A DNA stretch of 64,000 bases from the NCBI RefSeq assembly GCF_044324785.1, contig NZ_CP172127.1. One strand, 5' to 3'. The stretch is from Escherichia coli (GTDB taxonomy: Bacteria > Pseudomonadota > Gammaproteobacteria > Enterobacterales > Enterobacteriaceae). The position numbers and the translations under genes are program-made. Within the stretch, counting starts at the first letter, position 1. Each line of letters starts with the position of its first letter. The notes under the pieces were generated by a model. The model was not told where the DNA came from, did not search any database, and saw nothing but the letters and a program-made list of their open reading frames with translations. Of this stretch, positions 1 through 62,860 are shown piece by piece.

Positions 1-1185
1 GGCACTGCGCTGGAACCCACACTGCAAAACGTCGCTATCGGCGTAACCGATATCCCGGCGCTGCTGGATTTCGCGCAAAACGAAAAGATCGATCTAACCA
101 TCGTCGGCCCGGAAGCGCCGCTGGTGAAAGGCGTAGTGGATACCTTCCGCGCCGCCGGGCTGAAAATCTTCGGCCCAACCGCAGGTGCCGCGCAGCTGGA
201 AGGCTCGAAAGCGTTTACCAAGGATTTCCTGGCCCGCCATCAGATCCCTACGGCGGAATACCAGAACTTCACCGAGGTAGAACCTGCGCTGGCGTATCTG
301 CGTGAGAAAGGCGCGCCAATCGTCATTAAAGCTGACGGTCTGGCTGCCGGGAAAGGCGTTATCGTGGCGATGACGCAGGAAGAAGCGGAAGCGGCTGTTC
401 ACGATATGCTGGCGGGCAACGCTTTTGGCGACGCGGGGCATCGCATCGTTATCGAAGAGTTCCTCGACGGCGAAGAAGCGAGCTTTATCGTGATGGTGGA
501 CGGTGAGCATGTGCTGCCGATGGCCACCAGCCAGGATCACAAACGCGTAGGCGATAAAGATACCGGGCCGAACACCGGCGGGATGGGCGCTTACTCCCCT
601 GCGCCAGTAGTGACCGATGAGGTTCATCAGCGCACGATGGAACGAATCATCTGGCCAACCGTGAAAGGCATGGCGGCAGAAGGCAACACCTACACCGGTT
701 TTCTCTACGCGGGCCTGATGATCGACAAACAGGGCAATCCGAAGGTTATCGAATTTAACTGCCGCTTTGGCGATCCGGAAACCCAGCCGATTATGCTGCG
801 CATGAAGTCCGATCTGGTTGAGCTCTGCCTGGCAGCCTGTGAAGGTACGCTTGACGAGAAAACGTCCGAGTGGGATGAACGCGCTTCTCTCGGCGTGGTG
901 ATGGCTGCGGGTGGATATCCGGGCGATTACCGCACCGGCGATGTGATCCACGGCCTGCCGCTGGAAGAAGTGTCTGACGGCAAAGTGTTCCACGCGGGCA
1001 CGAAACTGGCGGATGACGAGCAGGTAGTGACCAGCGGCGGGCGCGTACTGTGCGTCACCGCGCTGGGTCATACTGTGGCAGAAGCGCAGAAACGCGCTTA
1101 TGCCTTAATGACCGATATCCATTGGGACGACTGCTTCTGCCGGAAAGATATCGGCTGGCGCGCTATCGAACGCGAGCAGAACTAA
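1..1185 (+). CDS. purD: phosphoribosylamine--glycine ligase (GAR synthetase), 5' end outside window
   Basis: Frame 1 is open from base 1 (GTALEPTLQNVAIG...) into listed ORF 124..1185; ATP-grasp type sequence; conserved position next to zraR. Confidence 0.93.
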   Translation, partial: GTALEPTLQNVAIGVTDIPALLDFAQNEKIDLTIVGPEAPLVKGVVDTFRAAGLKIFGPTAGAAQLEGSKAFTKDFLARHQIPTAEYQNFTEVEPALAYLREKGAPIVIKADGLAAGKGVIVAMTQEEAEAAVHDMLAGNAFGDAGHRIVIEEFLDGEEASFIVMVDGEHVLPMATSQDHKRVGDKDTGPNTGGMGAYSPAPVVTDEVHQRTMERIIWPTVKGMAAEGNTYTGFLYAGLMIDKQGNPKVIEFNCRFGDPETQPIMLRMKSDLVELCLAACEGTLDEKTSEWDERASLGVVMAAGGYPGDYRTGDVIHGLPLEEVSDGKVFHAGTKLADDEQVVTSGGRVLCVTALGHTVAEAQKRAYALMTDIHWDDCFCRKDIGWRAIEREQN

Positions 1186-2507
1186 CGCGACAGTTTTGCC
1201 AAGAGCGTTTTGCGCGTGATCCCTAACTGACGGGCGGCTTCGGTTTTGTTGCCGCCCGTTTTCTCCAGTGCCGCAAGAATCACCTCTTTTTCGACTTCCA
1301 CCAGCGGCTGAATATCCTGACTTTGTACCAGCGGGATCGGCGTACTCGCAATCGCCAGCGGCAGCTCGCGTTCGGAAATATATTCCCCGGTCAGCAGCAC
1401 CACCGCCCGTTCCACCGCGTTTTCCAGTTCACGAATATTTCCCGGCCAGTCGTAGTGAATCAGCAGATCCATCGCCTGGGGCGTAAAACCTTTTACCGCC
1501 TTGCGATTACGCTCGGCAAAGCGCTGAAGAAAATGGTTTGCCAGCAGAGGAATATCTTCCCGCCGCTGACGCAGCGACGGAACTTCAATCGCCACCACGT
1601 TCAGGCGATAGTAGAGATCCTGGCGAAAACGCCCGGCATTCACCTCTGCGGCAAGATCGCGATGAGTCGCCGCAATCAGCCGGACATCAACCGAGATGGT
1701 CTGGTTGCTGCCGACACGCTGAACTTCGCGCTCCTGAATCGCACGCAGCAGACGAACCTGCATCATCGGCGAGATATCGCCAATTTCATCGAGAAACAGC
1801 GTGCCGCCGTCCGCCTCAACAAAGCGCCCTTCCCGGCGTTTGTCGGCTCCGGTAAACGCCCCTTTTTCGTGACCGAACAATTCAGATTCCAGCAAGGATT
1901 CGTTGAGTGCCGCACAGTTGAGCGTTACCAGTGGTTTTTCACTCCGTGCGCTACTGGCGTGAATCGCCCTGGCGACCAGCTCTTTACCGGTGCCGGAATC
2001 GCCGTGGATCAGCACTGTGGCTTCCGATGGCGCGACGAGGGCGATTTCACTGAGCAGGTGTTGCATCGCCGGGCTTTTACCGACCATACCGAACTGGCTG
2101 GCAGACACCGCAGGCGTTTCAGCGTCAATACTGTGCGTATGCGCGAGCACCTTTTCCAGCGTCGCCTGCAGGTTATCGAAATCCAGCGGCTTGATGAGAT
2201 AATCCAGCGCCCCGGTTTTCAGTGCCTCTACCGCCGTCTCGACGCTGGAGTATGCGGTCATAATCAGTACCGGAATCGCCGGATTTAACGCTTTGATCTC
2301 TTTTAGCGTGGCAATGCCGTCCATCTCCGCCATTCGCACATCGCAAAGCACAAGATCAAAAACTCGCTCCCGCACCTGTTCCAGCGCCTGTCGCCCGCTG
2401 TTCGCCAGCGCGACGTTATAGCCCCAGCCGCGCAGTAAAGCCTGCAAAATAGTGCAGTGGCTAATGTCATCATCCACCACCAGAATATCGATATTATCGT
2501 GCGTCAT
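1182..2507 (-). CDS. zraR: sigma-54 dependent two-component response regulator
   Basis: 441 aa; receiver domain N-terminus, AAA+ sigma54-activator motifs (GESGTGKE, GAFTGA), C-terminal HTH; overlaps zraS stop. Confidence 0.93.
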
Positions 2508-3880
2508 CCTTGTGGGTCCTTACGCGTAATATTGACCGGAAGCCAGAGGGTGAACGTTGCGCCTTTTCCCTCCTGGCTTGCGACCTGAATTGTACCACCG
2601 TGTTGTTCAACAATATTATGCACGACCGCCAGCCCCAGTCCGGTACCTTCGGCTTTGGTGGTGAAGTACGGGGTGAAGATGGCTTCAAGCTGATCTGCCG
2701 CAATTCCCTTACCGCTGTCGGTAACGCTGATTTTCACGCCCGCGCCGCTTTCGCTGGCCGTCACGCTAATCACGCCATGCTGACCAATCGCCTGAATAGC
2801 ATTGAGATAGAGATTCAACAGGACCTGAGTCAGCCTGTCCGGATCGGCCTGAATTTCCGGTAATGTGTCGTTGGCGGTAAAGCGTAACTGGATCTCCCGG
2901 CTGTTTGCATCCTGGCTTACCAGCTGTAATGAGTGGTTAATCAGCGTGTTGAGATCCACCGCCTGCAAAGCCAGATGCGTTGGCTTGACCAGTTCCAGCA
3001 ACTCGCTTACCACGCGGTTTAAACGGTCGGCTTCTTTCGCCATCACCTGCGCCAGTTGATGCGCTTCTCCCCCTGCTGGCGCACGTTCGGCAAAGTATTT
3101 CGCCAGCCCTTTAATCGAGGAAAGTGGGTTACGGATTTCGTGGGCGACGCCTGCCGCAAGATGCCCCAGTGCCACCAGCTTCTCTTTGCGCTTCATTTCA
3201 TCCTGCAATAGCTGCCGCGAGCGCAGATATCGGCGATACCAGAAGAATGACAACACGCTTGCCAGCAAGACCGTCGCCAGAGCGAAGAGGATAATCAGGG
3301 TATTTCTCTGCTCACGATCCTCAGCACTCACAATGTTACTGGCGTCGAAAGCGATAAAAATTGCTTGTGGTGTCGCGGCATACTGCTGCATATGGCGCAT
3401 CCGGTGCATTCCAGCAGCAAACATCGGTTGAAACTGGCGATAAATTTCCAGAACAGGCTCGCCGTCTGCGCTATCGATCCGCCGCCACGCTTCTTCATCT
3501 CCCGGATGTAACTGCTGCATTTTCTGCGGGGAATAAAGCTGTTTTCCCACCATGCCGGAGTTGCTATGCATCACGATTGTTCCTTGTTCATCCGTGACCG
3601 CAAACCAACGTACACCAGGCTGCCCGGCCATTTCTTCCAGTAATGCCTGCTGCTGCGCATGATGCATGCGCATCCCCATGCCGACGCGCGAGCCGGATTC
3701 GAGAGCACGGATAAGTACACTGCCTTTTTCCAGCTGCGTTTGTCTGGCGGCGGCAGTCTCGCGCCCATAATCGCGAATCACTGTCACCGCAAACAGCCCC
3801 ACCAGCCCAACAATGACCACGGGGAGGATCGCGCTTAACCATTTAGCTAAGGAATCTTTAGAACGTTGCATAAAACGCAT
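2504..3880 (-). CDS. zraS: sensor histidine kinase of ZraSR system
   Basis: 458 aa; two TM segments, H-box (HEIRNPL) and HATPase motifs; operon with zraR. Confidence 0.9.
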   Translation of the reverse strand: MRFMQRSKDSLAKWLSAILPVVIVGLVGLFAVTVIRDYGRETAAARQTQLEKGSVLIRALESGSRVGMGMRMHHAQQQALLEEMAGQPGVRWFAVTDEQGTIVMHSNSGMVGKQLYSPQKMQQLHPGDEEAWRRIDSADGEPVLEIYRQFQPMFAAGMHRMRHMQQYAATPQAIFIAFDASNIVSAEDREQRNTLIILFALATVLLASVLSFFWYRRYLRSRQLLQDEMKRKEKLVALGHLAAGVAHEIRNPLSSIKGLAKYFAERAPAGGEAHQLAQVMAKEADRLNRVVSELLELVKPTHLALQAVDLNTLINHSLQLVSQDANSREIQLRFTANDTLPEIQADPDRLTQVLLNLYLNAIQAIGQHGVISVTASESGAGVKISVTDSGKGIAADQLEAIFTPYFTTKAEGTGLGLAVVHNIVEQHGGTIQVASQEGKGATFTLWLPVNITRKDPQG

Positions 3881-3910
3881 CTTCTTCTTTGCCTGCTCAT
3901 CCCTTTCTGA

Positions 3911-3927
3911 CAGCAGAAATCATGCCA
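3911..3927 (-). promoter_or_regulatory. candidate sigma-54 (-24/-12) promoter for zraSR
   Basis: Minus-strand TGGCAT-N6-TGCT with GG and GC 12 bp apart, upstream of zraS start. Confidence 0.5.
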
Positions 3928-4076
3928 TCTTTTAGCAGCGCTTACCCTGCGCTGTAACACAAAGACTTAAGTTTCAATGAGTAAAAATGACTCGCCACCC
4001 ACAGCAGGCGAGTCATTTTTACTCGTTTATCATGCCAGATTACCCGTCATATCAGCGTTTCGTTGTTGGCACGAAA

Positions 4077-4092
4077 GATGCAATACCCAAAG
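4077..4092 (+). promoter_or_regulatory. candidate sigma-54 (-24/-12) promoter for zraP
   Basis: TGGCACgaaagaTGCA with GG/GC spacing 12 bp, about 30 bp upstream of zraP start. Confidence 0.55.
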
Positions 4093-4117
4093 TAAGACAA
4101 CCACTGGAGGATTAACC

Positions 4118-4543
4118 ATGAAACGGAACACGAAAATTGCCCTGGTGATGATGGCGCTTTCAGCAATGGCGATGGGATCGACATCTGCATTTGCTCACGG
4201 CGGACACGGGATGTGGCAACAAAATGCCGCGCCCTTGACCAGCGAACAACAAACAGCGTGGCAGAAAATCCATAATGACTTTTACGCTCAAAGCAGCGCA
4301 CTGCAACAGCAACTGGTGACGAAGCGTTATGAATACAATGCCCTGTTAGCCGCGAACCCACCGGATAGCAGCAAAATTAACGCGGTCGCCAAAGAGATGG
4401 AGGCTTTGCGTCAGTCGTTAGATGAGTTACGGGTGAAACGGGATATTGCGATGGCTGAAGCGGGTATTCCGCGCGGAGCCGGAATGGGCATGGGCTACGG
4501 CGGCTGCGGTGGTGGCGGTCATATGGGTATGGGCCACTGGTAA
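4118..4543 (+). CDS. zraP: periplasmic zinc-resistance associated protein / chaperone
   Basis: Start taken at internal Met (MKRNTKIALVMMALSAMAMG signal peptide) of ORF 3977..4543; Gly/Met/His-rich C-terminus; divergent from zraSR. Confidence 0.88.
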   Translation: MKRNTKIALVMMALSAMAMGSTSAFAHGGHGMWQQNAAPLTSEQQTAWQKIHNDFYAQSSALQQQLVTKRYEYNALLAANPPDSSKINAVAKEMEALRQSLDELRVKRDIAMAEAGIPRGAGMGMGYGGCGGGGHMGMGHW

Positions 4544-4544
4544 A

Positions 4545-5246
4545 TCAGAACGTTTTCTCGTTGGGTTGCCAGCGACAGAAATCAGAGTTTGCCACTAACA
4601 GTAATTGCGAACCTTCGGGCGCTTCCAGCCATGCCACGCTGACATCAACAGAAGAGCGGCTCTGGCGGCGCTCGATATGCGCTATCGCCTGCGAATCTAA
4701 ATCAGGTTTAATGGTTTGCCCTTCGCAGGTGGTCACGGTCTGTTCCATCGCATGCCAGCGCCCCTGGCGCAGCACGACTCTTCCCTGACGTAAGGCATCG
4801 CTAATCTGGCGGATCTGATCAGCACGATAACGGTATAAATCGATTTGGTCGTTAGAAAGCTGCTGCTTTTCCCCATCGGATTCACGTTGCATAAAGCTCA
4901 GATCGCCGCGATCGTCAAAACGCGCGCGAATGTTCACCGGCGGTTTGCTGTAAACATTGATATTGATGAGCGTGAGGTTATCGCCCTGCCAGCGATACTC
5001 TCGCGTCGTGGTATCGCCACTGCGCCACGGGCTAAACACGGCAAGCAGATGCACATTATCGCCACTGTCTTTTCGCCAGATGCGTACCGCGCCCTGGTCT
5101 TCAGCAAATCCACTGGCGGTAAAGGGAGGAAGTGAAGAGTTGTGACTACAGGCAGTGAGAAACAGAGCGCCAGCCAGCATCAATGATCGACGCCAGAAAG
5201 ACAAAAGGGGTGAAACCACCCCTTCGTTAAAACTGTTCACTGCCAC
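4545..5246 (-). CDS. yjaH: DUF1481-type putative lipoprotein; start codon uncertain
   Basis: ORF 233 aa with lipobox-like LTAC; the listed N-terminal extension runs through the hupA terminator hairpin, so the true start is probably further downstream. Confidence 0.75.
   Translation of the reverse strand: MAVNSFNEGVVSPLLSFWRRSLMLAGALFLTACSHNSSLPPFTASGFAEDQGAVRIWRKDSGDNVHLLAVFSPWRSGDTTTREYRWQGDNLTLININVYSKPPVNIRARFDDRGDLSFMQRESDGEKQQLSNDQIDLYRYRADQIRQISDALRQGRVVLRQGRWHAMEQTVTTCEGQTIKPDLDSQAIAHIERRQSRSSVDVSVAWLEAPEGSQLLLVANSDFCRWQPNEKTF
5201..5227 (-). terminator. probable hupA intrinsic terminator
   Basis: Minus-strand GAAGGGGTG-gtttc-CACCCCTT followed by T-rich tract, just downstream of hupA stop. 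Confidence 0.5.
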
Positions 5247-8903: not shown

Positions 8904-8997
8904 AGCTCTTGCACTACCTTTGCATCACTGGCATGTTTAACATGGTTTTTACATTTCTCACTGAGCAGTTTTTGAATACAAACTTGCGGAGTCAATC

Positions 8998-9474
8998 ATG
9001 CTTAACCAGCTCGATAACCTGACGGAGCGCGTCAGAGGAAGTAACAAACTGGTTGATCGCTGGCTACATGTACGTAAGCATCTGCTCGTGGCTTACTACA
9101 ATCTGGTTGGCATTAAGCCTGGCAAAGAATCGTACATGAGGCTAAACGAAAAAGCCCTTGATGATTTTTGTCAGAGCCTGGTCGATTACTTGTCTGCCGG
9201 GCATTTCAGTATTTATGAGCGCATTCTTCATAAGCTGGAAGGCAACGGGCAACTCGCGCGCGCCGCGAAGATTTGGCCGCAACTCGAAGCCAATACCCAA
9301 CAGATTATGGATTACTACGATTCCAGCCTGGAAACCGCCATCGATCACGATAATTACCTTGAGTTTCAACAGGTTTTATCTGACATCGGCGAGGCGCTGG
9401 AAGCACGCTTTGTGCTGGAAGATAAGCTGATTCTGCTGGTGCTTGACGCCGCCCGCGTCAAACATCCTGCTTGA
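8998..9474 (+). CDS. rsd: regulator of sigma D (anti-sigma70)
   Basis: 158 aa MLNQLDNLTERV...; divergent from nudC, upstream of thiC. Confidence 0.92.
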   Translation: MLNQLDNLTERVRGSNKLVDRWLHVRKHLLVAYYNLVGIKPGKESYMRLNEKALDDFCQSLVDYLSAGHFSIYERILHKLEGNGQLARAAKIWPQLEANTQQIMDYYDSSLETAIDHDNYLEFQQVLSDIGEALEARFVLEDKLILLVLDAARVKHPA

Positions 9475-27511: not shown

Positions 27512-27740
27512 AAACCAACCTGTCAGAAGTATTCTACAAACATTTTCACCCCGCGATCGCGAGGCAAACCAAATCGAAACGCGTATTAGCTTTTCGGATT
27601 ATACGCCCTCAACAGAGCCTGTCTCAGCAATGATTATGACAAAGAAAATCACTGATGAGCCAGGTTCTGGTACGAAAGCGTGCAAAAAGGGCATCAAATG
27701 ATGCCCTTTTAGTGCGCATTGCGTCAAATGTTATCGGCAA

Positions 27741-49674: not shown

Positions 49675-50269
49675 TTTATAAAAGAATTGCCAGATATCTT
49701 CGATACGGCTGGCATCGCGGCCAATTAATTGTGGACAAAGATGATCTTTCAGATAAGAAGCGACCGACAATTCGCGCCCATTTAACGTGGCATCTCCTAA
49801 TCCACAAAGTCCGCTTTCAGTGGTTATTTTAAGCGTAACGAAATTACGTCCTGGGCAAGTAACAAAAACATCTGCAGCAATAATTTTCATTATTGCAATC
49901 TCCTGTGTTGTAAATAGACGCTTCAAACTTAATTTTACGCCTACTACCATACAAGAGAGAAAGAGCGATTATTCAACCGTGATCACATTAAAAACAAAAA
50001 TTCCCACCGAGGAACAAGAATATCCTCAAATTTCATCCACACTATTAATTACTATTGTTAAAACAACACGTTAAATAATCACATAACAAATTCCTCTAAG
50101 GAAGAGAGTCATAACAATAACAAATGATAATCATATTTTACTTAATTCAATACGTATCGATATGTTTATTTTAAAAAGATTTTTCGGAATGAGAGATGAA
50201 AAGAAGATACACAAACAGGAAGAAATACGATTAATATTGGTCGCGGTAAGGGTAGCCGTTCCTCCCTTC

Positions 50270-50376
50270 CGCAACCCATTAACCCTTGAAGTCACAGTCT
50301 ATTTCAGGCATTTCTCAACTCAAAATAACGAAGGCCAATGTGAACTTTGTGGCTCTCCAGGATCCGCTTTGTTTTC
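50270..50376 (+). ncRNA. degenerate oxyS-like sequence (pseudo-oxyS, 3' two-thirds incl. terminator hairpin)
   Basis: AACCCTTGAAGTCAC...TTTCTCAACTC.AAATAAC.AAGGCCAATGTGAACTTTGTGGCTCTCCAGGATCCGCTTTGTTTT aligns to oxyS 46410..46509 at roughly 80 percent identity. Confidence 0.7.
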
Positions 50377-50378
50377 CA

Positions 50379-51857
50379 TCAAACAACGGAACTCAGCGCA
50401 CTGGCAACCTGTTTAAAGCGAGCAAACCGTCGCCTGAGCATGTGTGCTTTTTCTACATTCGGTTCAAGACGAATCACGTTGAGATGCGTGGCCTTCATGG
50501 CCTGTTTGAATCCAGAATAAGCCCCTCCTCCTACTGCCGCACACATTGCAGCCGCTCTACAACCTGACTGTTCAATATCGACAATTTCAAGAGGCATGTT
50601 GCTGGCATCACAAAACATCTGCATCCAGATTCTGGAATGCGTTGGCCCGCCAGAGAAACGAATCGTTTGCAATGACTTATCAATCTCAATAAGACGGTCC
50701 TGATGCAACAAATGAGAAAAGACAATGCCCTGATAAATCGCGTACACCAAATCTTCTCTTTTATGATGCCCACACAGCCCCAAAAATCCCCCGCTTAATG
50801 CCTCATGGTAATTCGAGCCAAACAACCACGGGAAAAAGAGAATATCATTCTGCTTCTCATACCCTCGTTCCACCCACTCATTAATCACCCGATAGCTGTC
50901 AGGAAGATCCGGTAAAAATTGCTGCAAGAACCATGTCAAATTACTGGCTGATGTAGGGCTTCCCTCATGGGCGAAAAATGTACCTGGAATGCTAAATTTC
51001 CCCCATACATAGGGATAATCAGAAGGAATAATGCGATCAAAGATACGCGTTGCAATTGACCAGGTGCCAGCAACCGCACTTAACGTTGTACTGTCATAGA
51101 TGCCAGAAGTGAGCGCCGCACCAACGACATCAAAAACACCACCAAAAACAGGCGTTCCGGCGAGAAGCCCACATTGGCTGGCTGCTTCAGATGTCACAAC
51201 CCCTGCTAAATCAGCGGAGCCAATAATATCGGGAACCTTACCCGCAACTTCCTTAATCTCAAATAGGCGAAAAAGTTCAGCATCATAAGCACTGGTATAT
51301 TGATTATAAAAATTACTGCCTGAAATATTGGTTTCTTCACAAGCCAGTTTGCCAGTAAGCCGTGAACGTATGTAATCATGAACCATCAAAATGGTTCCGA
51401 TGCGGCCATAATTGTCAGTCTCATGTTTTTTCAACCAATGCAATAGTGCTACAGGGTGCGATGGCCAGAGCTGTTGCAGACTACGGTGATAGCTTTCGCG
51501 GTCAATTCCTTGTTCTTTCCAGCTTGCAACCAGTTGTTGTGCGCGAGAATCAGAGGAAACAATGCCGTATCGTAAGGGCTTACCTTGCCGGTCGAGCAGG
51601 TACAAACCTTTACCATGAGCAGAAAAACTGATGCCATCAATCTGACTCGCAGTAATATTGTTCTCTGACATCGACAGTGAAATGACCTGGCACGTTACCT
51701 TCCATAACGCCTCCATGTCGCGTTCGCAAAAACCAGGACATGGGCTTAACAGAGGTAACACTTGCGAAGAGACACCTATTTCACGTCCTTCTGCCGTATA
51801 AATTCCCGCTTTGGTTTCTGTACCACCTAAATCGACACCAATAAAATACCGCTCCAT
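50379..51857 (-). CDS. FGGY-family carbohydrate kinase, L-xylulokinase (LyxK/SgbK)-like
   Basis: 492 aa; N-terminal GVDLGGT, conserved HEGSPTSASNLTWF, FFPWLFGSN, GGPTHSRIWMQMF blocks resembling E. coli LyxK. Confidence 0.85.
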   Translation of the reverse strand: MERYFIGVDLGGTETKAGIYTAEGREIGVSSQVLPLLSPCPGFCERDMEALWKVTCQVISLSMSENNITASQIDGISFSAHGKGLYLLDRQGKPLRYGIVSSDSRAQQLVASWKEQGIDRESYHRSLQQLWPSHPVALLHWLKKHETDNYGRIGTILMVHDYIRSRLTGKLACEETNISGSNFYNQYTSAYDAELFRLFEIKEVAGKVPDIIGSADLAGVVTSEAASQCGLLAGTPVFGGVFDVVGAALTSGIYDSTTLSAVAGTWSIATRIFDRIIPSDYPYVWGKFSIPGTFFAHEGSPTSASNLTWFLQQFLPDLPDSYRVINEWVERGYEKQNDILFFPWLFGSNYHEALSGGFLGLCGHHKREDLVYAIYQGIVFSHLLHQDRLIEIDKSLQTIRFSGGPTHSRIWMQMFCDASNMPLEIVDIEQSGCRAAAMCAAVGGGAYSGFKQAMKATHLNVIRLEPNVEKAHMLRRRFARFKQVASALSSVV

Positions 51858-51873
51858 GATCCCTCCTTAGTTT

Positions 51874-52737
51874 CTAAATATTATCCCAGCCGGCAAGGCG
51901 CATTTTCTCTTCAATCCATTGACGTGCATGAATAATTTCTAATAGAGGTTCCGTCGCTTTTTCTGTCCACATTTCTATCAGAAACGTTCCGCGATAATTA
52001 AGATTACGCAGAATCTTAAATAATTTAATAAAATCTACACACCCTTCACCAAAAGGAACGTCACGAAATTGCCCTGGAGAATCAGGCGTTACTGGGTACG
52101 TATCTTTAAGATGGATTGCGGCAATTCGATCAATCCCCTTTACCAGCTCACTTTCCAGTTCATTACCCCATGCGGTCAGATTGCCAACATCCGGATAAAC
52201 GGTAAACCAAGGGGAATTAATTTTTGTATCCAGGACTTTCCATTTACTAATAGAATTAATAAATGGCGTATCCATGATTTCTACAGCACACATAACTTGT
52301 GCCGCTGCGGCCTGTTCAGCTGTCCAGGCCATCGCATCTTCAAACCAGGCGATAGTTTCTTCATTCTGCGGCTCATAATAAACGTCATAGCCTGCCAGTT
52401 GGATTGTTCGAATCCCCAAATCCTGCGCCAGGCGTAACGCCTTCAACATAATCGTACGCGCCTGCTGACGAGTATCTCTATCATGGCTACCAAATGGAAA
52501 ACGCCGGTGAGCAGACAGGCACATTGTCGGAATACGGATCCCCGTTTGCTGAATGGCGCTAATAAGCTCCATACGCTCGGTGAGCGACCAGTCCAGGCGG
52601 GCGAGTCGTTCATCATTCTCATCTACCGACATCTCAACAAAATCAAAACCGCAAGATTTAGCCAGGGCTAGTTTCTCTACCCAACTGGTATTCCTGGGTA
52701 GCGCTTTTTCATAAATACCTAACGGGTGGCGTCGCAT
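51874..52737 (-). CDS. L-ribulose-5-phosphate 3-epimerase (UlaE/SgbU family, TIM-barrel)
   Basis: 287 aa; PLGIYEKALP...GFDFVEMSVDE.DERL.RLDWS...MCLSAHRRFP.GS...IQLAGYDVYY motifs nearly colinear with UlaE. Confidence 0.88.
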   Translation of the reverse strand: MRRHPLGIYEKALPRNTSWVEKLALAKSCGFDFVEMSVDENDERLARLDWSLTERMELISAIQQTGIRIPTMCLSAHRRFPFGSHDRDTRQQARTIMLKALRLAQDLGIRTIQLAGYDVYYEPQNEETIAWFEDAMAWTAEQAAAAQVMCAVEIMDTPFINSISKWKVLDTKINSPWFTVYPDVGNLTAWGNELESELVKGIDRIAAIHLKDTYPVTPDSPGQFRDVPFGEGCVDFIKLFKILRNLNYRGTFLIEMWTEKATEPLLEIIHARQWIEEKMRLAGWDNI

Positions 52738-53783
52738 TATTTTCCCTCACGAGTGATCAATTGTTGTTGAAAGATTTTCCGGCTCTTATTCATGTCACGC
52801 TGCAACTGCCATTTTTGTTTGATGAATTTAAATGCCAATGCGGCGATCAATGTGATCCCCCATACCGCCAGATTGAAATGCAAACTAATTCCCAACAGAC
52901 TAAGGCCGGTAGCAATAACCTGAAGCACAAGTAAGGCACAAAAAACATGACTGACTTTACCCGCCCCACCGAATGGATCTGTGCCTCCCAATACAATTGC
53001 AAGAACCGTCAAGAGCAAATAGGAATCGCCATAGCCCATACGCGCCGAATTAAATCGCGCGAGCATAATAAGACCTGCTAATACACACAACATGCTGGAT
53101 ATAGCATATATAGCAATTAATACGCGGTCGGTGCGAATACCGCTAAACCATGTGGCGTTAATATTACTGCCACACATATAAATCGTTTTTCCCGTACGGG
53201 TTTTGCCGAGGAACAGAGCTAAAGCAACGGTGGTGACGATAAAAATCATCATCGGTACTGGGATCCCCATGATAACTTCAGACCCAATACTGCGGACTAC
53301 TGGTGGCATACCACTTAAAGCTGCCCCCTTAGTCAGGTAAATACCGATACCACTAATAATGGTCATGCTACCCAATGTGACCAAAATAGGGTGAGCGCCT
53401 ATATGAGAAATAATTAACCCAGTAATAGCTCCAATGATGATGGCAATAAGCATCGCCCCGACAATAGCCAGGAAGAGCCAAAACAACTGGCTACCTGTAG
53501 ATGCATCTGCGGGTACATATTGAATCAACACCCAGGCCATAAACAGGCTGGTCAGATTCGCAGTACCGATGATTGCCAGATTAAGCCCCCCGCTCAACAT
53601 CGGTATAAACATCGCAAACGTGAGCAACCCAAGCTCTGGCAATTGAAATGCAATGCTCAGAAAAGTATTGTCGGTGAAAAAACGCCCCGGCATTGCCAGA
53701 CTAAATAACACCACCGCAATAAAACATATTGATAATAAGCCTGAACTGGTACCATCTAGTGGAAAAAATATCCGCTTGTTCAT
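52737..53783 (-). CDS. sugar ABC transporter permease (RbsC/YjfF-like)
   Basis: Polytopic membrane protein; start taken at MNKRIFF (ORF extends to 53813, overlapping upstream permease). Confidence 0.8.
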   Translation of the reverse strand: MNKRIFFPLDGTSSGLLSICFIAVVLFSLAMPGRFFTDNTFLSIAFQLPELGLLTFAMFIPMLSGGLNLAIIGTANLTSLFMAWVLIQYVPADASTGSQLFWLFLAIVGAMLIAIIIGAITGLIISHIGAHPILVTLGSMTIISGIGIYLTKGAALSGMPPVVRSIGSEVIMGIPVPMMIFIVTTVALALFLGKTRTGKTIYMCGSNINATWFSGIRTDRVLIAIYAISSMLCVLAGLIMLARFNSARMGYGDSYLLLTVLAIVLGGTDPFGGAGKVSHVFCALLVLQVIATGLSLLGISLHFNLAVWGITLIAALAFKFIKQKWQLQRDMNKSRKIFQQQLITREGK

Positions 53784-53796
53784 TTCGATCCTCCCG

Positions 53797-54789
53797 TTAG
53801 ACGAAACCAACATCAGTTTCTTTACGCTTTTTGTAATGGGTCACACAAATCGCCGAGACAATAACCACCCCAATAACGATATTGACGAAATAACTCGAGA
53901 CACCAATCAAATTAAGGCCGTTTTTAAGAATACCGATAAGAAATACGCCCATAAGCGTACCAATGACCGTACCACGTCCGCCTGATAAACTGGCACCGCC
54001 CAATACCGCTGCAGCCAGCACATCCAACTCTCCGCCAACCAATGCATTCGGCACAACTTCACTCATACGGTAAGCTTGCAGCATTCCACCAATTGCTGCA
54101 GCGGCACCAAGATAACCGTAAGCAAACAGATAAATTAGCGACACCCGAATCCCAATACGTCTTGCTGATTCGGTATTCCCTCCCACGGCATAAAGCTGAC
54201 GCCCAATATGGGTTTTGTTCATTATCACCCACGTCAGAAATGCCATTCCCAGCATAACCACTAACGGTAATCCGATCTGGTAATCTTCTCCGCCAAATTC
54301 AAAACTCAGGAAAGAACGCTGCGTAATCCACCAATCCGGTAAATCGTAAATACTGTGACCATTAGTCAACCACATCAACATACCGAACAGTAACGACTGC
54401 ATACTAATCGTAATGATGATAGAAACGACATTAAGGTAATAAATAAGAATAGCGTTTATCAAACCAAAAATGATGCCAAAAAAAACAGCAAACACCAGGC
54501 AGAAAAATGGATTTGATAGCGTTTCATTAAGCAGTAACGACGCCACAACATATTGCACAACCGAAGCTACTGCTGCAAAAGAGATATCAATTCCGCCAGT
54601 AACCAATACGACAAATAATCCGAGGGCGAAAATACCCGTTACGGCATAACTCTCCGAGAGATCGAGCAAGTTCTGTATTGATAAAAACTCATCGCTCATG
54701 ATGGAAAAAAATACCAGCATGAGAACAATGACCCATCCTAACCAAGCTTCGACTGAACGAGGAAACCGCAGCCGCATAAAGCTAACCAT
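53797..54789 (-). CDS. sugar ABC transporter permease (RbsC/YtfT-like)
   Basis: 330 aa polytopic membrane protein; start overlaps ATPase stop. Confidence 0.8.
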   Translation of the reverse strand: MVSFMRLRFPRSVEAWLGWVIVLMLVFFSIMSDEFLSIQNLLDLSESYAVTGIFALGLFVVLVTGGIDISFAAVASVVQYVVASLLLNETLSNPFFCLVFAVFFGIIFGLINAILIYYLNVVSIIITISMQSLLFGMLMWLTNGHSIYDLPDWWITQRSFLSFEFGGEDYQIGLPLVVMLGMAFLTWVIMNKTHIGRQLYAVGGNTESARRIGIRVSLIYLFAYGYLGAAAAIGGMLQAYRMSEVVPNALVGGELDVLAAAVLGGASLSGGRGTVIGTLMGVFLIGILKNGLNLIGVSSYFVNIVIGVVIVSAICVTHYKKRKETDVGFV

Positions 54790-56299
54790 TAATCACCTCC
54801 GCCAACTGCTGCTCGGTATAATTCGAAGGCAACAGCTCATGAATAATCTTTCCGCGCTTCATATGAAAAATACGATCGCAGTTATAATAAGCTTCTGGTG
54901 CTTCATCAGTAATTAATATCACTGAAATACCCACACCTGAAAGCCGATGAATAAGCTGGTAAATACTATCTTTTGCGCCAATATCTACACCTACCGTTGG
55001 CGCATCCAGAATTAAAACCTTAGGTCGTGTTAAAATCCATTTAGCCAGGACAACCTTTTGTTGATTGCCACCAGATAGCGTTGAAAGTGGATTATTTGGA
55101 TCGGTGACCTTAATATCCAAATCCTGGATCCACTCCTTGACTAAGGTTTCTTTTCGATTTTCATCAATAAACCCCGATGGCGTCTTTAAACGATCCAGAA
55201 TCGAGAGCACCATATTATCGCTGATAGATTGGGGTAATACGGCCCCCAGTGTCAGGCGATCTTCTGAAACATATGCTATTCCCAGTTTTACCGCATGCGT
55301 GTTGTCTTTAATTGTAACGGGCTTACCTTCAAGATAAATATCACCACTATCTGCTCGAGTAATACCGAAAAGACTCAATGCTAATTCGGTTCTCCCCGCA
55401 CCAAGTAAACCACACAATCCCAGAACCTCGCCTTGGTGTAGTTTTAGAGATACATCTTCAAATTGCCCTTTTCTGCATAATTTTTTTAGTTCAAGAACTA
55501 CTTTACCTTCAACGCTATTTGGTAGTTTTTTCTGGTGGACTATAGTTTTTCCGGTCATTAACTCAGTAATATCGCCTGGAGAAAGTTGATTGGCAGCCCA
55601 CGTTCCAATTATCTCTCCATCACGGATGACCGTAATTCGGTCTGAGATTTCCTTAACTTCATCAAGGCGGTGGCTAACAAAAACTACGGTAATATTTTTA
55701 TCGCGTAAGTAATTCACTGTGCGTAGTAATTGATTAACTTCAGTGCGCGTCAATGACGCCGTTGGCTCGTCCATGATGACTAACCGGGCATCGGCAATCA
55801 GAGCCCGGCAAATAGCGACCTGTTGGCGTTGTGCAATCGGCAAATGTTGTACTAACGCATCAGGATCGAGATTGAATTCCAGTTCCTGAATTATTTTCTG
55901 TGATACATCTCGAAGTTGTTTTTTTCTGTGCAGCCCTAAATATCCCTTCAGGTTGTATTCAAAAGCGATATTTTCAGCCACAGAAAGATTTGGGAATAAA
56001 GAAAGATCCTGATATATCACCTGAATACCCAGTTCCCGAGCTTTATCAGGAGAAAGACGAGTCCAGGACTTACCATCTATAATAATTTCACTTCCCGAAT
56101 CAGGAACATAAACACCACACAGCGTTTTGATCAGAGTACTTTTACCACACCCATTCGCACCAGCAAGACAATGAACCTCACCTTTATTTAAGGTAAGATT
56201 GATATTTTTTAGAGCCCTATGGCCACCGAAACTTTTCGTTAGTGACCTTAGCGTCACTAATGGTTGCTCCGCATTCTTCTCTATAATATGAGGCATCAT
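54782..56299 (-). CDS. sugar ABC transporter ATP-binding protein (duplicated NBD, RbsA/YtfR-like)
   Basis: 505 aa; Walker A GANGCGKST in first NBD, LSGG signature in the second (LSGGNQQK), two NBDs. Confidence 0.88.
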   Translation of the reverse strand: MMPHIIEKNAEQPLVTLRSLTKSFGGHRALKNINLTLNKGEVHCLAGANGCGKSTLIKTLCGVYVPDSGSEIIIDGKSWTRLSPDKARELGIQVIYQDLSLFPNLSVAENIAFEYNLKGYLGLHRKKQLRDVSQKIIQELEFNLDPDALVQHLPIAQRQQVAICRALIADARLVIMDEPTASLTRTEVNQLLRTVNYLRDKNITVVFVSHRLDEVKEISDRITVIRDGEIIGTWAANQLSPGDITELMTGKTIVHQKKLPNSVEGKVVLELKKLCRKGQFEDVSLKLHQGEVLGLCGLLGAGRTELALSLFGITRADSGDIYLEGKPVTIKDNTHAVKLGIAYVSEDRLTLGAVLPQSISDNMVLSILDRLKTPSGFIDENRKETLVKEWIQDLDIKVTDPNNPLSTLSGGNQQKVVLAKWILTRPKVLILDAPTVGVDIGAKDSIYQLIHRLSGVGISVILITDEAPEAYYNCDRIFHMKRGKIIHELLPSNYTEQQLAEVING

Positions 56300-56362
56300 A
56301 ATATTCCTGAATACGACTAAAGGAATTCCGGGTCAAATTTGACCCGGTGATTTACGGTAAAA

Positions 56363-57367
56363 TTACAAGCCTAACTTCACTAAATGTCGTGTATTTTCAA
56401 GATCGAGCTTTTCTGGATTATCACTATAAATAGTGTTGTTATTAACCTTGATCTCGCCCATATCACCGATTTTTACACCGTCTTTAATAGGTTCACCGTT
56501 CATCATTGCCGTCGCAACCTGGACAAAAACCTTACCCGCAATCATAGGGTTTGAAATATATCCCCCATCAATGGCGCCTTTTTCGAGTAGCTTAATTCCC
56601 TGACCTGGAGTGAAGGTTCCAAAAACGCAAATTGCGTCATTTTTCTTCCGCTTATCAATAGCACGCCCCGCACCAATTGGTCCTTGTGAACCAAATGACA
56701 TAATGCCTTTAAGATCTTTATATTTAGACATTAAATCGTTCGTCGTGCGCATTGAATCATCCACCGATTCAGCAACACCAAAACGATCTTCAACCAACGT
56801 CATATTTGGATAATGTTCTTTTTGATAAGCAATCGCGGCATTGGCCCAGTCATTTACCAAAGGCACGGTCAGACTGCCGACAAACATGGCGTATTTACCT
56901 TCTTCGCCCATGCACTTCGCCATATCTTTCATATGATTGGCACCCATTGTCTGGGTATTTAACAACTCAAAATCCCAATCTGCATTTTTTTGATCTGGTG
57001 ATTCGTGGGTAATAACTTTAATACCGGCTTCTTGTGCACGCTTAAGTACAGGTTCAAGAACCTTTGCATCGTTAGGAACAACCCCAATAACATCCACTTT
57101 TCGTGCAATTAAATCTTCAATCGCCCGAACCTGTTCAGCTGGATCTGCCGTTGTAGGGCCGACCTGCCATGCATCAACCCCCAATAGTTTTCCTTCATCT
57201 TTAATGCCTTGTTCCATCACATTAAACCAGGGAATGCCACCGACTTTTACTACTACCCCCATCGTAAAAGGTTTATTCGCTTTTTGTGATGTTACAGTCT
57301 GATCAGCCCATGCAGCAGTGGAAGATAATACGGTAGCAATAAGGCAGGGTAAGATTAATTTTTTCAT
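56363..57367 (-). CDS. periplasmic sugar-binding protein (PBP type I, RbsB/YtfQ-like)
   Basis: 334 aa; signal peptide MKKLILPCLIATVLSSTAAWA; first gene of ABC operon. Confidence 0.82.
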   Translation of the reverse strand: MKKLILPCLIATVLSSTAAWADQTVTSQKANKPFTMGVVVKVGGIPWFNVMEQGIKDEGKLLGVDAWQVGPTTADPAEQVRAIEDLIARKVDVIGVVPNDAKVLEPVLKRAQEAGIKVITHESPDQKNADWDFELLNTQTMGANHMKDMAKCMGEEGKYAMFVGSLTVPLVNDWANAAIAYQKEHYPNMTLVEDRFGVAESVDDSMRTTNDLMSKYKDLKGIMSFGSQGPIGAGRAIDKRKKNDAICVFGTFTPGQGIKLLEKGAIDGGYISNPMIAGKVFVQVATAMMNGEPIKDGVKIGDMGEIKVNNNTIYSDNPEKLDLENTRHLVKLGL

Positions 57368-57390
57368 CGTAATTTCCTTAAGAAATAGTT

Positions 57391-57430
57391 CAGGTGTCAG
57401 GAAAACTCGATATAATATCGACCTGACTAT
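57391..57430. promoter_or_regulatory. palindromic candidate operator/promoter upstream of ABC operon
   Basis: Perfect 15-bp palindrome TCGATATAATATCGA flanked by GTCAGG / CCTGAC half-sites, 30-70 bp upstream of SBP start; contains TATAAT. Confidence 0.4.
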
Positions 57431-57489
57431 TTATATAATTTATAATCCCTTAGGCATTGATTAATAATTTAGACAATAAATAATGCCTA

Positions 57490-58299
57490 TTATTTATCAA
57501 CCTCCACAATGTTTAATTGTGGAAATTGTGTTCGATACCGAGTATCTGTACAAACATTAGTCACCAGAATATCGATTTCATCCAGCGTGCATATTTTACT
57601 AAATGCATACTGTTCAAACTTACTGGAGTCGACCAGCAATATTTTTTGTCCTGACACCTGAAGCATCACCTGTTTAAGTCTGGCATTAATTTCACTGCCA
57701 TCGCGGACACCATTCCCCAGATTCAACCCCTGGCATGAAAAGAAAAAACTGTTGATTTGAAAATTTCGGATCGCCCCCTCTGCAACCGGGCCATGAAAAT
57801 CATCATGTCGCTCAGAATACTCACCACCGATACCAATAATTCGAACTCGATCACGGCAAGCCAACGCCTGAATTATCCGTAATGAATTTGTAACTACAGT
57901 AACATCTATATCGGGAATTTGACGAGCTAAAAACCAACAAGTACTACTGTTATCCATTAAAATACAATCACCAGGGTGAATAAATTGCAATGCGGCCTTC
58001 GCAATTCTGGCTTTTATATCAGGATTTTCTTCAGTCCGTTTACGGAATGATTCCGCACGATCGATACTATTATCTTGCCACGCATTATCGGCGAGCATAA
58101 CCGGAGCGCTATCAGATGAATCCAGAGCGACCGCGCCACCAAAGCTACGGATTAACTTTTTGTTGCGCTCCAGTACCGTTAAATCCCGACGAATTGTCTC
58201 AGGAGACGCTTTAAATAATCGTGATAATTCTGTTACCTGTACAGCACCTTGTTTTTGTACATGTGCGCATATCATTTTATGGCGCTCTGCCTGCAACAT
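57490..58299 (-). CDS. DeoR-family transcriptional regulator (sugar-phosphate sensing type)
   Basis: 269 aa; N-terminal HTH (VTELSRLFKASPETIRRDLTVLE) and C-terminal DeoR-C sugar-phosphate binding domain. Confidence 0.85.
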   Translation of the reverse strand: MLQAERHKMICAHVQKQGAVQVTELSRLFKASPETIRRDLTVLERNKKLIRSFGGAVALDSSDSAPVMLADNAWQDNSIDRAESFRKRTEENPDIKARIAKAALQFIHPGDCILMDNSSTCWFLARQIPDIDVTVVTNSLRIIQALACRDRVRIIGIGGEYSERHDDFHGPVAEGAIRNFQINSFFFSCQGLNLGNGVRDGSEINARLKQVMLQVSGQKILLVDSSKFEQYAFSKICTLDEIDILVTNVCTDTRYRTQFPQLNIVEVDK

Positions 58300-58752
58300 A
58301 GTATCGGTCCGTTATTATCAAATTAGCATGCTTATATAATTAACTGTTCCCTCATAAAATAAAGTGATAGGAATCAAGATTCATTTTATAAATATAATCG
58401 CAAACAGAAATGGTGATCTTTACCACAAATTAAATTGAGAATATTCTACTATTGGACATTTTTTTGAGATATACGTCACTAAATAAGCTTTATTCTGTCA
58501 CCTGACGAAAAATTTAAATGCAAAAACAAAAATAATCGGGCATAGCAATCTCTTCCATTCATGACCGAATACGCCCGAATAAAACCGTTTACGCCCACTT
58601 ACCCTCTTTCATTGCCTTCTTACATGCCTTGAATATTTTACATTTCTTATATTCAGCGTAATTTAGGCAACATAATTTACGAGCAAAAATAGCCAAAACC
58701 CAAAAGTTAAAGTTTATTTATATAATACATACAGATTATCGTGGAGTTAAAA

Positions 58753-59435
58753 ATGGATACGCTAAAGGAAAAAGTTCTTGCTGCGAATTTATCACTACCC
58801 CTTCATCAGTTAGTGACGTTTACCTGGGGAAATGTTAGCGGTATTGATCGCGAAAAAGGTGTCATGGTTATTAAACCTTCTGGGGTCGAATACAGCCAAA
58901 TGGGCAGGTGGTAGTGGATTTACAAAGTGGTGAAGTTATTGATGGACACAGGAAACCCTCTTCAGACACAGATACTCATCTGGCGCTATACCGTGCTTTC
59001 CCGGATATTGGAGGTATCGTTCATACCCATTCCCGACACGCCACAATATGGGCTCAGGCCGGAAAAGATCTCACGGCCTTTGGGACAACCCATGCAGATT
59101 ATTTCTACGGCACTATCCCCTGTACACGCCCCATGAAGGATGACGAAATTAATGGACAATATGAATATGAAACGGGGCGAGTGATTATTGAAACGTTCAG
59201 GCAACGAGAAATATCTCCCGCTGACATTCCGGCTGTTTTAGTAAACAGTCATGGCCCCTTTGCCTGGGGAACTGATCCCGCGAACGCCGTGCATAACGCC
59301 GTTGTACTTGAAGAAATCGCCTATATGAATCTCTTTACACAACAGCTACACCCCCATCTTACGGCTATTCAACAGCCTCTACTGGATAAGCATTTTTTAC
59401 GCAAGCATGGTGCCAATGCTTATTACGGGCAGTAA
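58753..59435 (+). pseudogene. L-ribulose-5-phosphate 4-epimerase (AraD/SgbE/UlaF class II aldolase family), apparent frameshift
   Basis: Frame 1 [51 protein letters not shown] then stop at 58910..58912; continues in another frame [21 protein letters not shown]...[14 protein letters not shown]...[18 protein letters not shown]. Confidence 0.8.
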
Positions 59436-59484
59436 CCCTCTAAGCATGGCCTGGCGTTTTGCCAGGCCACGAATCGCCCAGGAC

Positions 59485-60858: not shown

Positions 60859-60918
60859 AACTCTGTTTCCTTATTTTGAAATTCAATGCCGGAAAGCTGC
60901 GCCTCCGGCCAACAAAAC

Positions 60919-61695: not shown

Positions 61696-61702
61696 TGCAC
61701 CC

Positions 61703-62707: not shown

Positions 62708-62860
62708 CGGGGCTATTCACCTTCTTATGTCTGGTTGCCAGGTTAAACGTAAAACATTCACCTTACGGCTGGTGGGTTTTATTACGCTCAACGTTAGTGT
62801 ATTTTTATTCATAAATACTGCATGAATATTGATACTATCATGACCAGAGGTGTGTCAACA
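62708..62860. promoter_or_regulatory. argE / argCBH divergent control region (ArgR-regulated)
   Basis: AT-rich intergenic region between divergent argC and argE starts. Confidence 0.6.

What the first reader, a model, noticed from the sequence alone, without database searches (positions are those of the whole stretch)
3881..4117. Back-to-back sigma-54 promoters in the zraP / zraSR divergent region
Both strands carry well-spaced -24/-12 elements (TGGCAC-N5-ATGCA for zraP; TGGCAT-N6-TGCT for zraSR), consistent with the known ZraR-activated, sigma-54 dependent divergent promoters. This is a positive control showing the core region is conventional.
Basis: partly seen in the sequence, partly recalled or inferred. 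Interest (0 to 1): 0.12.

Follow-up and report, generated by a model that had tools for sequence, protein, structure and literature searches.

The report
Known divergent sigma-54 promoters of zraP/zraSR
The 237-bp gap between the E. coli genes zraSR and zraP holds the two known outward-facing sigma-54 promoters and the shared ZraR enhancer between them, so the finding is correct but ordinary.

Summary
Observation confirmed, interpretation supported, nothing new. Window 3881-4117 is the zraS-zraP intergenic region of an E. coli chromosome. It carries TTGGCACGAAAGATGCA (4066-4082, +) aimed at zraP and ATGGCATGATTTCTGCT (3928-3912, -) aimed at zraSR. Both have the canonical GG-N10-GC spacing.

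I built a weight matrix from 40 other E. coli sigma-54 ChIP-seq sites. With it, these two sites rank first and second of about 128,000 positions in the window (17.6 and 17.4 bits; next best 14.3). About 0.15 such hits are expected per 64 kb.

They sit at the same positions as the K-12 sites bound by sigma-54 in ChIP-seq. The zraS site is identical. The zraP site differs by one spacer base. Both genes are rpoN-dependent in published arrays.

Between the promoters lies a 21-nt inverted repeat containing two 15-bp sites 31 bp apart, the likely ZraR enhancer. The adjacent zraR encodes a response-regulator bEBP with a GAFTGA motif.

Across 11 Escherichia and Citrobacter sequences, 54 of 62 element positions are invariant, against 25 of 161 elsewhere in the spacer.

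Not shown here: mapped transcription starts, and the exact ZraR footprint.

Side observations: a two-allele ZraS sensor domain and an unexplained invariant AACACAA block.

The parts
1182..2507 (-). zraR: response-regulator bEBP (receiver, AAA+ sigma-54 interaction domain and Fis-type HTH), with GAFTGA at residues 216-221
   Evidence: Pfam Response_reg, Sigma54_activat (E 8e-74) and HTH_8. GAFTGA found in the translation. Residues 141-441 match PDB 1OJL 'ZraR' at E 2e-178.
2504..3880 (-). zraS: sensor histidine kinase, 458 aa, first gene of the zraSR operon
   Evidence: ORF listed. Pfam HisKA and HATPase_c. RefSeq names for the homologous stretch.
3912..3928 (-). zraSR sigma-54 promoter, ATGGCATGATTTCTGCT (-24 GG at 3926-3925, -12 GC at 3914-3913). 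The predicted start is near 3901, 21 nt before the zraS ATG.
   Evidence: PWM 17.63 bits, rank 1 in the window. Identical to K-12 ChIP-seq site OS39. 15 of 16 positions invariant in 11 Escherichia/Citrobacter sequences.
3957..3963 (.). Invariant AACACAA block between the zraSR promoter and the enhancer; function unknown
   Evidence: 6 of 7 columns invariant, against a 16% background.
3976..4027 (.). Probable shared ZraR enhancer (UAS). It is a 21-nt inverted repeat with a 10-nt gap. It contains two conserved 15-bp sites, GAGTAAAAATGACTC (3979-3993) and GAGTCATTTTTACTC (4010-4024), with centres 31 bp apart.
   Evidence: Inverted repeat I1. The sites are exact reverse complements of each other. 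26 of 30 core positions are invariant but only 2 of 16 spacer positions, and the 31-bp spacing is invariant. ZraR binding to this spacer is published, but not at nucleotide resolution in the texts I could read.
4066..4082 (+). zraP sigma-54 promoter, TTGGCACGAAAGATGCA (-24 GG at 4068-4069, -12 GC at 4080-4081). The predicted start is near 4093, 25 nt before the zraP ATG.
   Evidence: PWM 17.36 bits, rank 2 in the window. K-12 ChIP-seq site OS38 is TTGGCACGGAAGATGCA, with one spacer difference. 13 of 16 positions invariant.
4106..4110 (+). zraP Shine-Dalgarno sequence GGAGG
   Evidence: Read directly; invariant in the alignment.
4118..4543 (+). zraP: periplasmic accessory protein and chaperone, 141 aa
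   Evidence: Pfam Metal_resist, E 3e-23. RefSeq names for the homologous stretch.

Best explanation
This is the ordinary regulatory region of the E. coli zraPSR system. Two sigma-54 (RpoN) promoters face outward from a shared enhancer.

Proposed sequence of events:
1. RNA polymerase carrying sigma-54 sits in a closed, inactive complex on each -24/-12 element: 4066-4082 for zraP and 3928-3912 for zraSR.
2. ZraS senses zinc or envelope stress and phosphorylates ZraR.
3. ZraR assembles on the two 15-bp sites of the inverted repeat (3979-3993 and 4010-4024). Their centres lie at about -76/-107 from the predicted zraP start and -85/-116 from the predicted zraS start.
4. ZraR contacts sigma-54 by DNA looping through its GAFTGA loop and uses ATP to open either promoter.
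5. This produces ZraP and, by positive autoregulation, more ZraSR.

Shown here: the motifs, their statistical strength, their identity with the K-12 sites, their conservation, and the activator's domain make-up.

Taken from the literature: sigma-54 occupancy, rpoN and zraR dependence, and ZraR binding to this spacer.

Inferred: the exact transcription starts, that each 15-bp site binds one ZraR dimer, and the looping geometry.
For: - Motifs and spacing are as described.
- Leave-out PWM ranks the two sites 1 and 2 in 64 kb, with about 0.15 expected by chance.
- They are in the same columns as K-12; the spacer has 8 substitutions, only one of them in a promoter, at a non-consensus spacer base.
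- Sigma-54 ChIP-seq gives separate peaks at both K-12 sites, with fold-above-threshold 39 and 9.
- RpoN holoenzyme SELEX gives a peak in the zraP/zraS spacer.
- rpoN deletion lowers zraP 3.1-fold and zraS 2.3-fold.
- In Salmonella LT2 there are ChIP-chip sites TGGCACGGAAGATGCAAG and TGGCATGATCTCTGCTTA, and the constitutive bEBP used in that study gives sigma-54-dependent induction of 16-fold and 3.7-fold.
- With zinc, zraS is down log2 3.18 in a zraR deletion, and there are ChIP-exo peaks upstream of zraP and zraSR.
- 81 of 86 ZraR SELEX clones come from this spacer.
- ZraR has Response_reg, Sigma54_activat and HTH_8 domains plus GAFTGA, and matches PDB 1OJL.
- Phylogenetic footprint: 54 of 62 element positions are invariant against 25 of 161 elsewhere (Fisher p about 1e-23). 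The site-to-site spacing is fixed at 31 bp. The only length change between the enhancer and the zraP promoter is +11 bp, about one helical turn, in Citrobacter.
- No sigma-70-like promoter, terminator or Rfam family was found in the region.
Against: - No transcription start is mapped for this strain, and none was found in the texts I could read. As reported, EcoCyc listed both promoters as 'predicted'.
- The nucleotide-level ZraR footprint could not be verified. The 2001 paper is not held and a sequence-string search found nothing relevant.
- zraS expression is unchanged in a zraR deletion without zinc. Some ZraR-independent transcription of zraSR must therefore exist, from a promoter I did not locate.
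- The Fisher test treats alignment columns as independent, and the enhancer cores were delimited after looking at the alignment.
Confidence: 0.95

Rival explanations
1. Only the zraP element is a productive promoter. The zraSR element binds sigma-54 holoenzyme but contributes little, and zraSR is transcribed mainly from an unidentified sigma-70 promoter.
For: The ChIP-seq signal is weaker at zraS than at zraP (fold-above-threshold 9 against 39). Induction of hydHG in Salmonella is smaller (3.7-fold against 16-fold). zraS is unchanged in a zraR deletion without zinc, so a basal promoter exists.
Against: zraS falls 2.3-fold in an rpoN deletion and log2 3.18 in a zraR deletion with zinc. The element has the highest PWM score in the window. 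15 of its 16 positions are invariant across two genera. No sigma-70-like site was found at the scan's threshold.
Confidence: 0.03
2. The two matches are chance resemblances to the -24/-12 consensus in an A+T-rich spacer.
For: Consensus matches with up to 2 mismatches are as common in the window as in shuffles (47 against 39).
Against: PWM ranks 1 and 2 of about 128,000 positions, with about 0.15 expected per 64 kb each. The sites have the correct divergent orientation and short leaders. They are near-invariant across genera while the surrounding spacer diverges. The identical K-12 sites are occupied in vivo.
Confidence: 0.01
3. The large inverted repeat (3976-4027) is an RNA hairpin, terminator or repetitive element rather than a protein-binding enhancer.
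For: The arms are 21 nt and 95% complementary. A sub-threshold microRNA-precursor match reflects the hairpin potential.
Against: It lies upstream of both predicted starts. The scan reports no terminator-like site. No Rfam family reaches threshold. Conservation is at the level of the two 15-bp cores with a free 16-bp spacer (2 of 16 invariant), which is the pattern of protein sites, not of a stem kept by compensatory change. ZraR binds this spacer.
Confidence: 0.01

Closest known systems
E. coli K-12 zraP and zraSR (hydHG) sigma-54 promoters (Leonhartsberger et al. 2001; sites OS38/OS39 of Bonocora et al. 2015, PMC4591121)
   Same: Same locus, same gene order and same 237-bp spacer length. The zraS element is identical. 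The zraP element is at the same offset. The enhancer repeat is the same.
   Different: There are 8 substitutions in the spacer. One (G to A) is in the non-consensus spacer of the zraP element. One makes the inverted repeat one base longer than in K-12. The adjacent zraS sensor-domain allele differs from K-12.
Salmonella Typhimurium LT2 zraP / hydHG promoters (Samuels et al. 2013, PMC3844500)
   Same: Divergent sigma-54 pair with near-identical elements, TGGCACGGAAGATGCA and TGGCATGATCTCTGCT. Both are sigma-54-bound and sigma-54-dependent.
   Different: Different genus, with one spacer substitution in each element. I did not obtain the LT2 spacer sequence to compare the enhancer.
hycA / hypA divergent sigma-54 promoters of E. 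coli (FhlA-dependent)
   Same: Another back-to-back sigma-54 pair in one spacer, with motif centres 128 bp apart (OS27/OS28). Both respond to one bEBP, listed as FhlA for the Salmonella hyc and hyp operons.
   Different: Different activator, signal (formate) and enhancer sequence. It is not a two-component autoregulatory loop.
glnAp2 / NtrC enhancer (from my own knowledge, not tested here)
   Same: A response-regulator bEBP uses two dyad sites about three helical turns apart, roughly 100 bp upstream of a -24/-12 promoter.
   Different: The NtrC enhancer serves one promoter. Here one enhancer lies between two.

Membership tests
Sigma-54 (RpoN) -24/-12 promoter | GG and GC doublets with exactly 10 bp between them (TGGCAC-N5-TTGCW register) | tested here: met
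   Both sites show this. GG 4068-4069 with GC 4080-4081; GG 3926-3925 with GC 3914-3913.
Sigma-54 (RpoN) -24/-12 promoter | Weight-matrix score within the range of sites bound in vivo and above the genomic background | tested here: met
   Scores are 17.63 and 17.36 bits. The median of the 40 training sites is 15.8. The two sites rank 1 and 2 in the window, with 0.15 expected per 64 kb.
Sigma-54 (RpoN) -24/-12 promoter | Placed upstream of a gene and oriented towards it, with a plausible leader | tested here: met
   Predicted leaders are 25 nt (zraP) and 21 nt (zraS), the same as the K-12 values in Bonocora Table 1.
Sigma-54 (RpoN) -24/-12 promoter | Occupied by sigma-54 holoenzyme | not testable with these tools
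   Published for the identical or near-identical K-12 and LT2 sites. Not measured for this strain.
Sigma-54 (RpoN) -24/-12 promoter | Transcription depends on rpoN | not testable with these tools
   Published for K-12 (3.1-fold and 2.3-fold decreases in an rpoN deletion) and for LT2.
Sigma-54 (RpoN) -24/-12 promoter | Mapped transcription start about 12 nt downstream of the GC | not tested
   No mapped start was found in the readable literature. EcoCyc status is 'predicted'. The 2001 paper is not held.
Sigma-54 (RpoN) -24/-12 promoter | A cognate bEBP with an AAA+ sigma-54 interaction domain and a GAFTGA loop | tested here: met
   zraR lies adjacent. Pfam Sigma54_activat at E 8e-74, GAFTGA at residues 216-221, and a match to PDB 1OJL.
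Sigma-54 (RpoN) -24/-12 promoter | An upstream enhancer roughly 70-150 bp from the start | tested here: met
   Two conserved 15-bp sites are centred at about -76/-107 (zraP) and -85/-116 (zraS). That ZraR occupies exactly these bases is inferred. Binding to the spacer as a whole is published.
ZraPSR two-component system locus | zraP divergent from zraS-zraR, in the purD...hupA neighbourhood, with the expected domains | tested here: met
   Synteny with K-12 and strain E300010. Pfam Metal_resist, HisKA/HATPase_c, and Response_reg/Sigma54_activat/HTH_8. 5419 of 5426 complete E. coli genomes hold the region.

The most novel reading that the evidence does not exclude
The invariant AACACAA block (3957-3963) lies between the enhancer and the zraSR promoter only. 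It may be a binding or bending site for an undescribed factor that decides how the single ZraR enhancer is shared between the two promoters. That could help explain why zraP responds more strongly than zraSR.
Probability: 0.1. Interest if true: 0.3.

Novelty: already known. Interest (0 to 1): 0.05.

Why it matters
It matters only as a control. The leave-out sigma-54 matrix picks out exactly the two textbook promoters in 64 kb and nothing else of comparable strength. This part of the window is therefore a conventional E. coli core region. It also shows that simple consensus matching would not have separated the zraS site from about 40 chance matches. The biology is already described in K-12 and Salmonella: ZraR-activated, sigma-54-dependent divergent transcription of zraP and zraSR.

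Tried and rejected
- **Plain consensus search with mismatches:** not enriched over shuffles, so not used as evidence.
- **Sigma-70 promoter and intrinsic terminator scans of 3700-4700:** nothing found.
- **Rfam scan of 3700-4700:** only two chance sub-threshold hits.
- **Second -24-like half-site:** TGGCATGAT at 4037-4029 (-) duplicates the zraS -24 element (D2). It has no -12 GC, scores 6.5 bits, and is not conserved in E. albertii or Citrobacter. Rejected as a promoter.
- **IHF-like site:** TATCAGCGTTTCG at 4050-4062 has one mismatch to WATCARNNNNTTR. It is not conserved, with only 1 invariant column. Not claimed.
- **Original 2001 J Mol Biol paper:** not held.
- **Full-text searches for the enhancer sequence and for a 'ZraR inverted repeat':** nothing relevant.
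- **Two papers checked for mapped starts:** no start data for zraP or zraS.
- **Search for related loci:** ZraP patterns against genome contigs returned only Escherichia and Citrobacter. Salmonella is covered only through published motif sequences.
- **Possible cryptic-clade origin of the window:** rejected. The window is 98.5% identical to an E. coli strain over 5.2 kb and 89.6-95.2% to the species representatives retrieved, which include E. whittamii and E. albertii.

Full report
**What is in the sequence.** Window 3881-4117 is exactly the spacer between two divergent genes. The 458-aa ORF at 2504-3880 (-) starts with the ATG that is the complement of 3880-3878. The 141-aa ORF on the + strand starts at 4118.

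On the + strand, TTGGCACGAAAGATGCA occupies 4066-4082. On the - strand, ATGGCATGATTTCTGCT occupies 3928-3912. 'TGGCAT-N6-TGCT' is the canonical register written differently. In both sites the GG and GC doublets are separated by 10 bp, as in TGGCAC-N5-TTGCW.

**Is it more than chance?** A plain consensus search does not settle this. With up to two mismatches the window has 47 matches against 39 +/- 7 in shuffles, and the zraS site is one of the two-mismatch matches.

I therefore built a 17-column weight matrix from the 40 other 'intergenic sense' sigma-54 ChIP-seq motifs in Table 1 of Bonocora et al. 2015 (PMC4591121). The zraP and zraS rows were left out. The results are as follows:
- The two sites are the best and second-best of all positions on both strands of the 64-kb window, at 17.63 and 17.36 bits.
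- The third-best site scores 14.26, and no other position in the spacer exceeds 6.5.
- Both lie above the median of the training sites (15.8).
- In 200 first-order Markov randomisations, about 0.14-0.15 sites of this strength appear per 64 kb.
- By my arithmetic that is about 3e-4 for one strand of a 237-bp spacer, and below 1e-7 for two correctly oriented sites.

**Identity of the locus.** The stretch matches 5419 of 5426 complete E. coli genomes, where it is annotated zraS and zraP. The gene order purD, zraR, zraS | zraP, yjaH, hupA, yjaG is that of K-12 MG1655 and of strain E300010.

Pfam assigns these domains:
- ZraR: Response_reg, Sigma54_activat (E 8e-74), AAA_lid and HTH_8.
- ZraS: HisKA and HATPase_c.
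- ZraP: Metal_resist.

ZraR carries GAFTGA at residues 216-221. Its residues 141-441 match the solved ZraR structure 1OJL at E 2e-178. Over 5.2 kb the window is 98.5% identical to an E. coli strain. It is 89.6-95.2% identical to the species representatives retrieved, which include E. whittamii and E. albertii, so it is E. coli proper.

**Comparison with published mapping.**
- Aligned with K-12, the spacer has the same length (237 bp) and eight substitutions. The zraS element is identical. The zraP element differs at one non-consensus spacer base: K-12 has TGGCACGGAAG and the window has TGGCACGAAAG.
- Zhao et al. 2010 list the K-12 elements at -51..-34 from the zraP start codon and -47..-30 from the zraS start codon. 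The offsets in the window are the same. They also report 3.1-fold and 2.3-fold decreases in an rpoN deletion.
- Bonocora et al. found separate sigma-54 ChIP-seq peaks on TTGGCACGGAAGATGCA (zraP, fold-above-threshold 39) and ATGGCATGATTTCTGCT (zraS, 9). Their predicted starts lie 25 and 21 nt before the genes. Applying their rule (start 19 bp downstream of the motif centre) to the window gives 4093 and 3901, with the same 25 and 21 nt leaders.
- RpoN-holoenzyme genomic SELEX also gives a peak in the zraP/zraS spacer.
- In Salmonella LT2, Samuels et al. 2013 found ChIP-chip sites TGGCACGGAAGATGCAAG and TGGCATGATCTCTGCTTA. The constitutive bEBP used in that study gave sigma-54-dependent induction of 16-fold for zraP and 3.7-fold for hydHG.
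- ZraR ChIP-exo peaks lie upstream of zraP and zraSR, and zraS drops by log2 3.18 in a zraR deletion with zinc.
- 81 of 86 ZraR SELEX clones derive from this spacer.

There is one limit. As reported by Bonocora's Table 1, EcoCyc classed both promoters as 'predicted'. I could not read Leonhartsberger et al. 2001. No experimentally mapped 5' end was therefore compared.

**The enhancer.** Between the promoters lies a 21-nt inverted repeat, 3976-3996 and 4007-4027, 95% complementary with 10 nt between the arms. Its conserved cores are GAGTAAAAATGACTC (3979-3993) and its exact reverse complement GAGTCATTTTTACTC (4010-4024).

Each core is itself a partial dyad (GAGT-N7-ACTC), and the centres are 31 bp apart, about three helical turns. 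From memory, and unverified here, the 2001 paper described the HydG site as two inverted repeats separated by a 14-bp spacer, which fits. That each core binds one ZraR dimer is inference by analogy with NtrC.

The centres lie at about -76/-107 from the predicted zraP start and -85/-116 from the predicted zraS start. These are normal enhancer distances for a bEBP.

**Conservation.** ZraP-based retrieval from species-representative genomes gave ten loci from Escherichia (E. coli, E. whittamii, E. albertii, Escherichia sp.) and Citrobacter. I aligned the spacers of nine of these loci (L010 omitted) with the window and K-12, 11 sequences in all. The conservation counts are as follows.

| Element | Invariant columns |
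|---|---|
| zraS promoter 16-mer | 15 of 16 |
| zraP promoter 16-mer | 13 of 16 |
| Enhancer core 1 | 12 of 15 |
| Enhancer core 2 | 14 of 15 |
| 16-bp gap between the cores | 2 of 16 |
| Remaining spacer | 25 of 161 |

Taken together, elements against the rest give an odds ratio of 37 and Fisher p about 1e-23. The columns are not independent, and the enhancer cores were delimited after seeing the alignment, so the p-value is only indicative.

The 31-bp site spacing is invariant. The distance from the enhancer to the zraP -24 element is 51 bp in most Escherichia, 50 bp in E. albertii and 62 bp in Citrobacter. The +11 bp change is about one helical turn, as expected if the face of the helix matters.

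**Mechanism.** Sigma-54 holoenzyme waits in closed complexes on both elements. Phosphorylated ZraR assembles on the shared enhancer, loops to either promoter and uses ATP to open it. This gives zinc- or envelope-stress-induced ZraP and positive autoregulation of ZraSR.

The occupancy and the genetic dependencies come from the literature on K-12 and LT2. The transfer to this strain rests on near-identity of the DNA. The dimer-per-site and looping details are inferred.

One gap remains. zraS is unaffected by zraR deletion without zinc, so a basal ZraR-independent promoter must exist. The sigma-70 scan found none at its threshold.

**Rivals.**
- Chance is excluded by rank, orientation, conservation and in-vivo occupancy of the same sequence.
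- An RNA-hairpin or terminator reading of the repeat is contradicted by several results. The repeat lies upstream of both starts. The scan reports no terminator-like site there. No Rfam match reaches threshold. Conservation falls on the cores while the gap between them varies freely.
- A 'zraS site binds but does not fire' reading is contradicted by the rpoN and zraR dependence of zraS.

**Verdict.** This is the already-described zraP/zraSR divergent sigma-54 control region and it serves well as a positive control. Interest is low.

**Noted in passing.**
- The ZraS periplasmic sensor domain exists as two deeply diverged alleles.
- An invariant AACACAA block at 3957-3963 has no assigned function.
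- An accessory sugar-utilisation island lies next to argH at about 50.4-59.4 kb.

Noticed in passing
window 3300-3760 (zraS codons ~41-190): The periplasmic sensor part of ZraS is only about half identical to K-12 ZraS (458 against 465 aa), while residues 1-40 and 195-458 are nearly identical. At the DNA level, 4183 of 5419 complete E. coli genomes carry the window's type at >=95% identity. Another 1236 match at only 60-80%; a laboratory strain sampled from that group matches at 72%. K-12's protein divergence points to the same minority type. This is a two-allele sensor domain flanked by conserved promoter and kinase core.
   Followed up: partly
window 3957-3963: The block AACACAA lies between the zraSR -24 element and the enhancer. 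It is invariant (6 of 7 columns) in 11 Escherichia/Citrobacter sequences, where the surrounding spacer is only 16% invariant. It has no assigned function and does not look like an IHF site.
   Followed up: partly
L008, L009, L011, L012 (Citrobacter), between the enhancer and the zraP -24 element; equivalent to window ~4032-4036: The Citrobacter spacers carry an 11-bp insertion here (51 to 62 bp). The site-to-site spacing (31 bp) and the zraS-side distance (60-61 bp) are unchanged. This is consistent with a helical-phase constraint on enhancer-promoter contact.
   Followed up: partly
window ~50380-59450: An accessory sugar-utilisation cluster lies beside argH. It encodes an FGGY kinase, L-ribulose-5-P 3-epimerase, ABC transporter, DeoR regulator and an araD-like epimerase. 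Only 146 of 5426 complete E. coli genomes cover at least 80% of window 50001-64000.
   Followed up: partly
window 4029-4037 (- strand TGGCATGAT): An exact 9-nt duplicate of the zraS -24 region lies next to the enhancer (D2). It has no -12 GC, scores 6.5 bits, and is not conserved beyond E. coli-like sequences. It is probably not functional.
   Followed up: yes
window 3881-4000, - strand: Published data show zraS expression unchanged in a zraR deletion without zinc. This implies a basal, ZraR-independent promoter for zraSR. The sigma-70 scan found no candidate at its threshold.
   Followed up: no
window 8908-8924 (+), 59400-59416 (-), 27626-27642 (-): These are the next-best sigma-54 matrix hits (14.1-14.3 bits). 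They fall within the range expected by chance: the mean maximum in randomised windows is 15.5. The first lacks the GG doublet. It lies about 75 bp upstream of the 158-aa ORF at 8998-9474, whose identity I did not check. The second falls at coordinates that correspond to the 3' end of the araD-like gene, antisense.
   Followed up: no
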